Positions 30,001 to 33,000 of a DNA stretch of 64,000 nucleotides are shown piece after piece. The stretch is from Escherichia coli. Lineage in GTDB: Bacteria; Pseudomonadota; Gammaproteobacteria; Enterobacterales; Enterobacteriaceae. A program made the position numbers. The stretch is taken from assembly GCF_048403405.1 (NCBI RefSeq), contig NZ_CP183129.1, one strand, 5' to 3'. Numbering within the stretch: the stretch's first letter is position 1; each line of letters begins with the position of its first letter.

Positions 30001-33000
30001 AGCGTGGAATTTCCATTATTGGTAATGGCGATAATTCGATTGCCGAAATTTTTCAGTGAAGGAACTAGCTTGAGGATTTCATCCGTTTCACCGCTGGCAG
30101 AAATAAGGATCAGAAGATCGTAAGGCGTAATCATGCCCAGATCGCCATGGAAAGCTTCTGCAGGATGAATAAAGAAACTAGGCGTACCCGTAGAGGCCAG
30201 CGTCGCTGATATTTTACGACCGACATGCCCTGATTTACCCATTCCCGAAAGAATAACGTGCCCTTTACAGTTCATTATCAAATTAAGGACACGCTGGTAC
30301 TGCCCGGAATCCAGTTGTTTAGACAAGTTTTGTAATGCTGCGCTTTGTTCTGCCAGAGTCTGGCGAACAGAGGTAATTAGATATGGATCGATAGTACTGC
30401 TCTGGTCATCAGGTAAATGTCTTTCAGACATATCAGCTCCTTTGCACGGAAATAATGCCACAGTCACAACAAACCTGAACCCACTATAATTTATTTATGC
30501 TAAATCAATGGGTTGTAACAAAATTTTTAATGAATATAAAACCATGGTCAGTCCATGCTTATATGCAGGACTTATCACCTTCTTATTAAGTCGCAATGTC
30601 TCATGGAGGTGCGAAGACGCTGCAATATTACAGGCGAGAAAGGGAACCAAATTTTGCCCACCTATTTAACACACTCCTACATTATGAACAAGGAATTTAG
30701 GATTTTTATCATTTATTAAAATGTTTCCTACTTGACTATTAATGCCAAAAACAATTTATCAATTGATTATTTCCTTGTAAAAAAAGAACGTATGACTATG
30801 TTATTAATAAATAAAACACGCAAATAATGGTGATGTTGTTTTGTGATTAATTATTTAAGTGATTCATAATAAACAGGTTGACAATTTCTATGTAAAGAAG
30901 AGGAAAATAATAAAATTTTAGCGGTGACTATTGAGTGATATGATAGTTGTGGTGTTGATTATTTCTGGTAATGAATGCGGAATTAAATCTGGCCGGATTG
31001 TATTTTTGCTATATCTATTTTTCAGGAGATTATTATTAAATAGAAAAATAACAATGGTGATTATCTCCGGTTGAGCTGGAGTCACGTATGCCAGCGAGTG
31101 CTTTCTTCCGGGCCTTCCTTCACTTCAGAGAAAGAGCCTATGGAAAAGAGGCAATCATCAGGCTCTTTTTGAGTCATATGCGCCGATAATCAACTGTCTT
31201 GAACGTAAAAATTATGGAGCAACATGATGCTACGATTCATTTCACTCTTCGTTCTTTCTGAGCATTGCGTTCAGGATGGTCAGCAATTTACGCATACAGT
31301 CAACCAGCGCCACTTTTTTGGTTTTTCCGGGTGCTGGCAGATGCATGTAAAACGCCTCTTTCACCGGATTAAACCAGGTTACCACAAGCGCTGCCATGTG
31401 CAGGGCTGCTCTTGCCTCCGTACGCGCACTGGCGTCGTTCGGCCAGCAGATATGTGTGGGATAACAGGGATGTTATGTGAACTGAACTGTGTTTTGCTAG
31501 CGGGGGATGTTTATTGATGATTCGGGAGTGTTTAAGACCTGATGGCGTTATGCACCCAAGTTTATTTTATATAAAGATCCAAAAGCAAAAACCCGCCTTG
31601 TGGGCGGGTTCTTAAGAATTAGTGGTGCCCGGAATCGGAATGAAACTGATTGTATAACAAATTGTTTTATATAGATTATTTTGTATTTGTTGTTTTTGAG
31701 GCCACCAATGAGGCCCCCATGTGCAATTCGAATTCTTTTGACGCTATAATCCCTCTTTTTTGTGCTTTGCTGTAATCATTTGGTCTGGTTCGATATGCTG
31801 AATTGTGGAATCGTACTTAACGCGTTTGTTAGCTGGTCAGAACACTTAGCGCTGTTTGTCTGAAACTGGAATAGGCTTCTTCCCAGTTAATCTGTGTATT
31901 ACCAAATACCATCGGTTTAACAAATCGTTGAAAGCGCAATTTGTGTACAGGATAATCCCGGAGTGCATCCAGCCCTTTCTTAAGTTCATCAACTGGTGAG
32001 CTACAAAATTGTGGGTACTGGTTACCATAGCGTGAATACATATCTGAACAAAATTTTTCAATACAGGAACATTCACACCTTTTTCCCTGACAATGCAGTA
32101 GTTGTCGTAAATGTGACGTACCAGAAACTCATCATCCTGTTGTTCGGGATTACGAAGATGTGCTGCTGTTCTTCGCATCATGGAGATGAGCTTTTCAGCC
32201 TGAGTGGATAAAATGGTGGCACAGGGGAATGCTGTTACAGGTGTACCTTTACCCGTTAACTCCGTGACAAGGGAATAAATATCTCTGCTTTCCGGATGTT
32301 CCAGCAGAGTGCTTTCCATCAACTCCAGCTTAATAAATGGACGAAGACAGGGGACTTGTGCAAATGTCTGGGGATAACGTACCGAGATTTCGTTATAACG
32401 ATACTCATCACGTGTTATACGGGCGTTTTCATTATCCAAGCTGAAAATGTCAGAATTATGAATAACATCCGTGATTATTTGCACGATTTCCTTGCGAATT
32501 TTTCTTCTCTTGTCTCTGCCATTTTGCATAAAGTTCTCTGTTGGCACGAGCTTTATATCAATATCTTCTGACATTCTGTTTAGCGAGATACCTGCTTTTG
32601 ATAATGCGGTACCTCCTGCAAACACGAGAGTATGTGTTTCTGGTTTTATTTCTTTTAATAATCTTAAAAGATCAACCACAAAATAATCTTTTTCGACGAT
32701 AGCGACAGATTCAATATCCAGTGCATCGGCAACGTCAGGAAATAATGATGTTAATTCAGGCATTGATTTTACTTTTCCCTACTATTAACACTCTTTTAAA
32801 TCGAGAAGGTGTTTTTATCCCCAGAGATACAGGAATTTGTGTGGACTGACCTTTATTGTAGCATTCCGTTGCTCCTGCCAGACGGTATCTGATATTCAGG
32901 CGCTCCAGGGCCTCTGTAATTACTGCAGCAGAGCCCCCAGGCGCTGCGGGCATGATTTTCCCAGTGATGATGTTACGACGGGCTTTGGTGTAAACACCAT

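What the first reader, a model, noticed from the sequence alone, without database searches (positions are those of the whole stretch)
31242..31641. Island boundary next to kpsF: tRNA-Phe 3' repeat, terminator and IS110-type remnant
A 19-bp copy of the tRNA-Phe 3' end (one mismatch) lies on the minus strand at 31623-31641 with a terminator beside it, marking the distal attachment-site repeat of a tRNA-Phe-integrated island that runs rightwards. The kps locus therefore lies outside that island, between its end and gspM. Between this repeat and kpsF is a C-terminal remnant of an IS110/IS1111-type transposase.
Basis: partly seen in the sequence, partly recalled or inferred. Interest (0 to 1): 0.45.

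Follow-up and report, generated by a model that had tools for sequence, protein, structure and literature searches.

The report
Known pheV island end beside kps

Summary
Window 31623-31641 (minus strand) is ATTCCGATTCCGGGCACCA, the last 19 nt of E. coli tRNA-Phe (pheV) with one G->T change. It is followed by 48 bp identical to the native pheV 3' flank of K-12, including the pheV terminator (31614-31586).

The window is collinear with complete ST73-like genomes such as strain U1. There, an intact tRNA-Phe and a P4-type tyrosine integrase (99% identical to the CFT073 one) lie about 84 kb to the right, in the same orientation.

209 complete kps-positive genomes have the empty site: kpsF, IS110 remnant, terminator, intact pheV and yqgA, all contiguous. 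So the island is a discrete insertion and kps lies outside it. The kps block (12057-31574) replaces a 101-bp K-12 spacer between the terminator and gspM/yghD.

The IS110-family C-terminal remnant is real (coding remnant 31242-31424; DNA homology 31191-31411).

All of this is already described. PLoS Genet 2024 (PMC11537424) lists exactly this attR, TTTCATTCCGATTCCGGGCACCA, for CFT073 GI-pheV, ending at the base that maps to window 31623. RefSeq already annotates the IS110 remnant.

Verdict: correct reading, ordinary and known, low interest.

The parts
31623..31641 (-). attR core: a 19-bp imperfect direct repeat of the pheV 3' end (ATTCCGATTCCGGGCACCA, G->T at repeat position 8). The published 23-mer TTTCATTCCGATTCCGGGCACCA spans 31623-31645.
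   Evidence: Aligned with attL, attB (K-12) and attB (kps-positive genome). Identical to the CFT073 attR in Table 1 of PMC11537424.
31575..31622 (-). Native chromosomal 3' flank of pheV (the B' arm), 48 bp, identical to K-12. It contains the displaced pheV intrinsic terminator.
   Evidence: 48 of 48 identical.
31586..31614 (-). Stem-loop of the rho-independent terminator (TAAGAACCCGCCCACAAGGCGGGTTTTTG followed by CTTTTGG). It is the original pheV terminator. It now lies between the island and the kps region 1 promoter, oriented to stop leftward transcription.
   Evidence: Same sequence follows pheV in K-12.
31412..31574 (.). 163-bp orphan segment between the truncated IS and the pheV flank. 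It is single-copy and found only on the kps side of this junction.
   Evidence: present in 1631 of 5426 genomes, at one place in nearly all (maximum 2), at 95% identity or more..
31191..31424 (-). 5'-truncated remnant of an IS110-family insertion sequence. The coding remnant (C-terminal ~60 aa) is 31242-31424. DNA homology to fuller copies covers 31191-31411. The catalytic N-terminal domain and the upstream non-coding end are missing.
   Evidence: RefSeq annotation.
30468..31190 (-). AT-rich (33% GC) non-coding region upstream of kpsF, the kps region 1 promoter region.
   Evidence: The promoter assignment rests on established knowledge of kps, not on a test here.
29448..30467 (-). kpsF, the first gene of kps region 1. 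RefSeq uses the shorter start, giving a 984-nt gene.
12057..31574 (.). The whole kps block (regions 3, 2 and 1, plus the IS110 remnant and the orphan), 19.5 kb, 40% GC. It occupies the place of the 101-bp K-12 spacer between the pheV terminator and the yghD/gspM stop codon.
11521..12057 (+). gspM (yghD), the conserved chromosomal gene on the far side of kps.
   Evidence: 94% identity to K-12 yghD.
31642..64000 (-). Distal 32 kb of the pheV genomic island (intP4.1-type GI-pheV): P arm, AbiEii pseudogene and AbiEi, DUF4942, an inserted intact IS110-family element, the yee/cbtA-cbeA module, Ag43, IS66 copies. The island continues beyond the window to intP4 and pheV.

Best explanation

How the junction arose: a circular island carrying an attP site with an imperfect copy of the pheV 3' end recombined with pheV (attB). 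The tRNA gene stayed intact at the integrase end (attL). There it is followed by an island-borne terminator. The original 3' flank of pheV, with its own terminator, was displaced about 84 kb away (105 kb in CFT073). In the window it sits joined to the island's distal arm.

Inferred, not shown: the G->T mismatch, and the two further mismatches 5' of it, lie on the island side. They are most simply island-derived, which would place strand exchange within the last 11 nt (TCCGGGCACCA).

Shown: the kps capsule block and the IS110 remnant belong to the chromosome-side flank. They were acquired by a separate event that did not use the pheV att site.

Inferred: the displaced pheV terminator now points the right way to stop read-through from the leftward island genes into the kps region 1 operon.

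The IS110 remnant lacks its catalytic domain and is inert.
For: Repeat and flank. The four-way alignment of attL, attR, attB (K-12) and attB (kps-positive TUM14771) shows precise junctions exactly at the pheV 3' end.

Intact tRNA-Phe and integrase in the collinear genome U1. The integrase has Arm-DNA-bind_3, Phage_int_M and Phage_integrase domains. It is 417/421 identical to the CFT073 integrase, which PMC11537424 places in intP4.1.

The island-borne terminator follows pheV at attL.

Empty sites occur in 209 complete kps-positive genomes.

A different island type in BL21(DE3) abuts the same flank with its own repeat variant, TTCGATTCCGAGTCC-GGCACCA. So the repeat variant goes with the island arm while the kps-side flank stays constant.

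Published description: CFT073 GI-pheV spans 3,406,225-3,510,900 with attR TTTCATTCCGATTCCGGGCACCA. Position 3,510,900 maps to window 31623 using the coordinates.

The kps block replaces the K-12 spacer. No second pheV-like repeat lies near gspM.
Against: Nothing contradicts the identification.

Several points were not shown here. Integrase activity, excision and circular forms in this strain were not tested. The position of strand exchange and the island origin of the T are inferences; a post-integration mutation spread with the island would look the same. No arm-type repeats were found in the reconstructed attP. The insulator role of the terminator is untested.
Confidence: 0.93

Rival explanations
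1. The repeat is an internal junction of a tandem or composite pheV island. On this view kps arrived first as an older pheV-integrated island and the present island then integrated into the regenerated pheV, so kps is part of the island array.
For: Older literature defines PAI-CFT073-pheV (123 kb) and PAI V536 (80 kb) to include the capsule genes, and PMC7387560 calls the K15 cluster part of a composite pheV island. kps is foreign-looking at 40% GC. A mobile-element scar, the IS110 remnant, sits at its edge.
Against: The repeat is followed by 48 bp identical to the native pheV flank of island-free, kps-free K-12, not by an island arm. The kps block therefore starts 48 bp beyond the tRNA end, outside the att core. 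There is no second pheV-like repeat anywhere in the window, including next to gspM. No integrase lies in 12057-31574 (annotation).
Confidence: 0.04
2. The repeat is a fossil scar only. The single mismatch, and possibly loss of a recombination directionality factor, has fixed the island, so attR no longer works as a recombination substrate.
For: PMC11537424 notes that a single mismatch in flanking repeats can lower island deletion frequency by orders of magnitude. The junction with this distal arm is conserved in 678 complete genomes. Many island genes are degraded by IS elements.
Against: Very close relatives of the window strain have an empty site. TUM14771 and KE55 are 100% and ST2747 is 99.9% identical over window 1-3000. 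This fits loss as well as non-acquisition. The integrase gene is full-length. PMC10272209 infers at least 14 excisions of the related CC95 pheV island, and circular forms are reported for related islands.
Confidence: 0.3
3. The similarity to the tRNA end is chance, or a decayed local duplication of pheV unrelated to any mobile element.
For: None beyond the short length of the repeat. The exact 19-mer also occurs by coincidence inside coding DNA of unrelated bacteria.
Against: Shuffled windows almost never reach this match: 0 of 100 for the 23-mer and 1 of 100 for the 19-mer at up to 3 mismatches. It is contiguous with 48 bp of the native pheV flank. The junctions are precise in the attL/attR/attB alignment. 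An integrase lies next to the intact tRNA.
Confidence: 0.01

Closest known systems
GI-pheV of the intP4.1 type, as in E. coli CFT073, Nissle 1917, ABU 83972, UMN026 and ST131 (PLoS Genet 2024, PMC11537424)
   Same: The 23-mer attR is identical (TTTCATTCCGATTCCGGGCACCA, the '19-bp imperfect repeat with a T substitution'). The endpoint is the same: CFT073 3,510,900 maps to window 31623. The distal yee/AbiE module is the same. The integrase is 99% identical to that of CFT073. The gene cargo is the same (pap, iuc/iut, sat, iha, nan, flu).
   Different: Nothing essential differs. In the collinear genome U1 the island is about 84 kb, against 104.7 kb in CFT073. The window has an extra intact IS110-family element at 34349-35452 that CFT073 lacks at that place.
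PAI V536 / PAI-CFT073-pheV as classically defined, and the CC95 'PAI-V' next to the K1 capsule locus (PMC10272209, PMC7545054)
   Same: The chromosomal site is the same (pheV, island, truncated pheV copy, kpsF ... kpsM, gsp). The integration logic with a P4-like integrase (intB/intP4) is the same. Strains with and without the island exist in both cases.
   Different: The classical definitions include the capsule cluster in the island. The 536, CC95 and BL21 islands carry a different repeat variant (22-23 bp with a one-base deletion) and a different distal arm.
Satellite phage P4 and CP4-type cryptic prophage integration into tRNA 3' ends (for example P4 at leuX, the she island at pheV in Shigella)
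   Same: A tyrosine integrase with an arm-binding N-terminal domain lies next to an intact tRNA gene. A short direct repeat of the tRNA 3' end marks the far boundary. The tRNA stays intact after integration, with an island-borne terminator following it in place of the displaced native one.
   Different: No phage structural or replication genes were seen in the parts examined. The cargo is virulence and fitness modules broken up by IS elements. Excision factors were not identified here.
IS110-family insertion sequences (nearest named relative seen: ISEc32, 72% DNA identity over 173 bp; 87% over 221 bp to an unnamed chromosomal copy in strain 219)
   Same: The C-terminal ~60 aa and the 3' end of the element are retained.
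   Different: The DEDD catalytic domain and the 5' non-coding end, where bridge/guide RNAs of IS110-group elements are encoded, are absent. It is a dead fragment. It is not derived from the intact IS110-family copy 3 kb away.

Membership tests
tRNA-integrated genomic island boundary (attR) of a P4-type tyrosine integrase: GI-pheV | A direct repeat of the tRNA 3' end at the distal boundary, in the same orientation as the tRNA gene | tested here: met
   18 of 19 identical, on the same strand as the intact pheV in the collinear genome.
tRNA-integrated genomic island boundary (attR) of a P4-type tyrosine integrase: GI-pheV | An intact tRNA gene at the proximal boundary, immediately followed by a tyrosine integrase gene | tested here: met
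   tRNA-Phe(GAA) at U1 404623-404698 (ARAGORN). A 421-aa integrase at 404896-406161 with PF13356, PF22022 and PF00589.
tRNA-integrated genomic island boundary (attR) of a P4-type tyrosine integrase: GI-pheV | The distal repeat is joined to the native chromosomal flank of the tRNA (B' arm) | tested here: met
   The 48 bp after CCA are identical to K-12 pheV downstream, including the terminator.
tRNA-integrated genomic island boundary (attR) of a P4-type tyrosine integrase: GI-pheV | Unoccupied sites exist in related genomes, with a junction exactly at the tRNA 3' end | tested here: met
   209 complete genomes have a contiguous kpsF, IS110 remnant, terminator, intact pheV and yqgA. TUM14771 was inspected and aligned.
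tRNA-integrated genomic island boundary (attR) of a P4-type tyrosine integrase: GI-pheV | intP4.1 allele together with the T-substituted 19-bp attR (classification of PMC11537424) | tested here: met
   The integrase is 417/421 identical in protein to that of CFT073, which the paper places in intP4.1. The attR string is identical to the published one. The allele was assigned by protein identity to CFT073, not by the paper's nucleotide phylogeny.
tRNA-integrated genomic island boundary (attR) of a P4-type tyrosine integrase: GI-pheV | Integrase-dependent excision and integration, with a circular intermediate carrying attP | not testable with these tools
   Only literature on related islands is available. 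No arm-type repeats were detected in the reconstructed attP.
IS110-family insertion sequence | C-terminal transposase domain (Transposase_20 / NF033542 C-terminus) | tested here: met
   NF033542 positions 281-342 of 343, E = 3e-8. Pfam PF02371 is weak, E = 0.13. 87% DNA identity to a near-full-length copy.
IS110-family insertion sequence | N-terminal DEDD (RuvC-like) catalytic domain PF01548 and an intact 5' end | tested here: not met
   Homology stops at 31411 and the reading frame is closed upstream. RefSeq notes 'missing N-terminus'. It is therefore a remnant, not a functional member.
IS110-family insertion sequence | Assignment to the IS110 or the IS1111 subgroup | not tested
   Only about 51 bp of homology follows the stop codon (31191-31241). 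That hints at a short 3' end as in the IS110 group, but no subgroup test was run.
Intrinsic (rho-independent) terminator | A G+C-rich stem-loop followed by a T-run, downstream of a transcription unit on the same strand | tested here: met
   12-pair stem with 6 G-C pairs and a T-run. Folding z-score -3.2. It is the sequence that follows pheV in K-12. Termination activity itself was not tested.

The most novel reading that the evidence does not exclude
The IS110-family remnant and the 163-bp orphan (31191-31574) lie at the very edge of the kps block, 48 bp beyond pheV. They could be the scar of the event that originally placed the group 2 capsule locus there, for example an IS110-type, sequence-guided insertion, or a recombination on an IS copy. 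The displaced pheV terminator could now act as a functional insulator that shields the thermoregulated kps region 1 promoter from island transcription. Neither idea is excluded by the evidence, and neither appeared in the papers examined.
Probability: 0.1. Interest if true: 0.35.

Novelty: already known. Interest (0 to 1): 0.1.

Why it matters
The junction decides where the mobile pheV virulence island ends and where the capsule locus begins. That matters for annotating uropathogenic E. coli genomes. It also matters for counting island gain and loss, and for judging whether capsule genes travel with the island; they do not, by the att-site criterion. This has already been worked out in print for CFT073, ST131, CC95 and others, so confirming it here adds no new biology. 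The small open points are the origin of the kps block, and whether the mismatched repeat still allows excision.

Tried and rejected
(1) I scanned species-representative genomes for the T-bearing repeat, to see whether it travels with the island arm to other sites or species. The 23-mer gave 0 hits. The 19-mer gave 39 hits, all in unrelated taxa. The 8 loci run through ARAGORN held no tRNA gene. In the one locus read, the match lies inside coding DNA for an ..LIPIPGTK.. motif. The scan was uninformative.

(2) I tried to build a synthetic 'same island arm at pheU' query. It was abandoned because the K-12 pheU downstream flank is itself island-derived: 111 of 114 nt match the integrase-side arm.

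(3) I looked for arm-type integrase binding repeats in a reconstructed attP. Only the island-borne terminator hairpin and two short palindromes turned up.

(4) An Rfam scan of 29000-37000 gave only a sub-threshold chance hit over the terminator (P9, 22 bits against a gathering score of 43).

(5) I tested whether the remnant derives from the intact IS110-family copy at 34349-35452. There is no significant similarity.

(6) I looked for another context for the 163-bp orphan. The plasmid collection gave one hit, a 29-kb 'Klebsiella oxytoca plasmid' that carries E. coli kps and yee genes and is probably misassigned chromosomal DNA. A partial hit in Ecol_AZ161 is an IS1-mediated deletion inside a K5 kps locus.

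(7) A full-text search for kpsF together with IS110 found no relevant paper.

Full report
**What is in the sequence**

On the minus strand, window 31641 down to 31623 reads ATTCCGATTCCGGGCACCA. The last 19 nt of E. coli tRNA-Phe are ATTCCGAGTCCGGGCACCA, so there is one mismatch. It is the only such match in the 64-kb window. Shuffled windows almost never reach it: 0 of 100 for the 23-mer at up to 3 mismatches and 1 of 100 for the 19-mer. No tRNA gene lies in the window.

Directly after the CCA come 48 bp identical to the DNA that follows pheV in K-12 MG1655. They include a textbook intrinsic terminator at 31614..31586, with 12 pairs and a T-run and a folding z-score of -3.2.

Left of that flank, identity with K-12 stops at 31575/31574. 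It resumes only at 12056, in the stop codon of gspM/yghD. K-12 has a 101-bp spacer there. The window has 19.5 kb of 40% GC DNA instead: kps regions 3, 2 and 1, the kpsF upstream region, an IS remnant and a 163-bp orphan.

**The far side of the island**

The window matches CFT073 and ATCC 25922 at 100% identity around the finding. Its ends and two interior stretches map at consistent coordinates, spanning exactly 64000 bases, in strain U1 (NZ_CP041359.1), with window x = 520351 - x.

Walking rightwards in U1 passes typical uropathogen cargo: nan, iha, sat, iuc/iutA, pap and many IS elements. It ends at an intact tRNA-Phe(GAA) at 404623-404698 next to yqgA. A 421-aa tyrosine integrase follows 197 bp later. 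The integrase has the arm-binding, central and catalytic domains. It is 417/421 identical to the integrase next to pheV in CFT073.

The tRNA is on the same strand as the repeat. No other copy of the repeat lies in the DNA examined between them. In this genome the island is about 84 kb.

**Junction anatomy**

I aligned attL (U1), attR (window), attB (K-12) and attB of a kps-positive, island-free genome, TUM14771. The junctions are exact.
- attL is pheV followed by AATTCATATAAACGGACCTCC..., which contains an island-borne terminator.
- attR is the island arm ...CAATCAGTTTCATTCCGAT joined to TCCGGGCACCA and the native flank.
- TUM14771 has an intact pheV followed by the same native flank and then the same kps-side DNA.

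A search with a synthetic empty-site query found this contiguous arrangement in 209 complete genomes. Some are near-identical to the window strain in the glc region.

The junction with this particular island arm is present in 678 complete genomes. The kps-side segment 31130-31574 is in 1613. The 163-bp orphan is in 1631, at one place in nearly all of them (maximum 2).

BL21(DE3) has a different, small pheV island abutting the same flank. Its repeat variant is TTCGATTCCGAGTCC-GGCACCA. The repeat variant thus follows the island arm, while the flank and the kps side stay constant.

**Mechanism**

Shown: the structure is what site-specific integration of a circular element into the 3' end of pheV produces. 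The native tRNA 3' flank and terminator are displaced to the far end.

Inferred: the three differences from pheV in the 23-mer (TTTC for TTCG, and T for G) all lie on the island side. They are most simply part of the island's attP arm. That would place strand exchange in the last 11 nt. The one-base-deletion variant of other islands would narrow it to roughly the last 6-7 nt, if it too is island-borne.

Inferred: the island genes nearest attR are transcribed leftwards (AbiEi, the frameshifted AbiEii). So are the terminator, the IS remnant and kpsF. The displaced terminator is therefore positioned to stop read-through into kps region 1.

I could not test activity. Related pheV islands are reported to excise, and mismatched repeats are said to lower the deletion frequency.

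**The IS remnant**

The minus-strand frame 31242-31424 encodes about 60 aa. They match the extreme C-terminus of the NCBIfam IS110-family model (positions 281-342 of 343, E = 3e-8). The Pfam match is weak.

DNA homology at 87% to a near-full-length IS110-family copy in strain 219 runs from 31191, about 51 bp past the stop codon and presumably the element's 3' end, to 31411, where it breaks off inside the gene. The catalytic domain is missing, so the fragment is inert.

It is unrelated in sequence to the intact IS110-family element at 34349-35452. The IS110-versus-IS1111 subgroup was not resolved. The remnant lies on the kps/chromosome side of attR and is present in island-free kps-positive genomes. 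It is therefore not part of the island.

**Was kps an older pheV island?**

This is unlikely. The kps block begins 48 bp beyond the tRNA end, after the native terminator. There is no second pheV-like repeat near gspM and no integrase within the block. How kps came to lie there remains open. PMC10272209 also calls the transfer mechanism unclear.

**Comparison with the literature**

PLoS Genet 2024 (PMC11537424) lists CFT073 GI-pheV as 104,676 bp, 3,406,225-3,510,900, with attR TTTCATTCCGATTCCGGGCACCA. [quoted passage not shown] By the coordinates,900 is window 31623.

Nat Commun 2023 (PMC10272209) describes the island between kpsF and pheV, the truncated pheV copy next to kpsF, and island-free strains with an intact pheV next to kps. 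Sci Rep 2020 (PMC7387560) notes a 22-bp truncated pheV copy upstream of the K15 cluster.

Older compilations draw the island to include the capsule genes. That is a difference of definition, not of fact. RefSeq annotates the IS110 fragment in every genome inspected.

**Verdict**

The feature is a known, well-described island boundary. The only loose ends are minor: whether the mismatched attR is still active, the origin of the kps block with its IS110 and orphan edge, and a possible insulator role for the displaced terminator.

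Noticed in passing
L010 (K-12 NC_000913.3 4361800-4363400), downstream of pheU; compare L004 38300-38420: In K-12, pheU is followed by about 114 nt that are 111/114 identical to the integrase-side arm found after pheV in the island-bearing strain, including the island-borne terminator. The yjdQ pseudogene is annotated there. K-12 pheU therefore carries the scar of a P4-type island, and its 'native' flank is not native.
   Followed up: partly
window 34349-35452 (minus strand): An intact IS110-family element (367-aa ORF; NF033542 E = 5e-101) is inserted between the DUF4942 and DUF957 genes of the island's yee module. 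It is absent at this place in CFT073 but present in ATCC 25922, U1 and about 60 other complete genomes. It is unrelated to the remnant at 31242-31424.
   Followed up: partly
window 31412-31574: A 163-bp orphan segment lies between the truncated IS and the pheV flank. It is single-copy, 95% or more identical in 1631 of 5426 E. coli genomes, and always on the kps side. Its origin is unknown.
   Followed up: partly
window 31829-32763 and 32756-33151 (minus strand): An AbiEii toxin gene (frameshifted according to RefSeq) and an AbiEi/DUF6088 antitoxin gene are the last genes of the island, immediately inside attR.
   Followed up: partly
L050 (NZ_LR890315.1, 'Klebsiella oxytoca MSB1_10D plasmid 4', 29 kb): A record labelled as a non-mobilizable Klebsiella plasmid carries E. 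coli kps genes, this junction segment and yee-module genes with E. coli protein accessions. It is probably misassigned or misassembled E. coli chromosomal DNA.
   Followed up: no
L025 4062-4219 and 38 other loci (L011-L049): The exact 19-mer ATTCCGATTCCGGGCACCA recurs in Pseudomonas, Xanthomonas, cyanobacteria and others. In the one locus read (L025) it lies in coding DNA for ..LIPIPGTK.., and none of the 8 loci checked has a tRNA gene. It is a coincidence unrelated to tRNA or islands.
   Followed up: partly
L007 (NZ_CP019012.1 strain Ecol_AZ161) 1749-2537: In this K5 strain an IS1A copy joins kfiB directly to the last 37 bp of the orphan segment. That is an IS1-mediated deletion removing kps region 1, kpsF and the IS110 remnant up to just before the pheV flank.
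   Followed up: no
window 13191-13200: A GGCGGTAG (ops/JUMPstart-like) motif lies upstream of the first region 3 ORF (13171-14007), as expected for RfaH-dependent kps region 3 transcription. It was seen by eye only.
   Followed up: no
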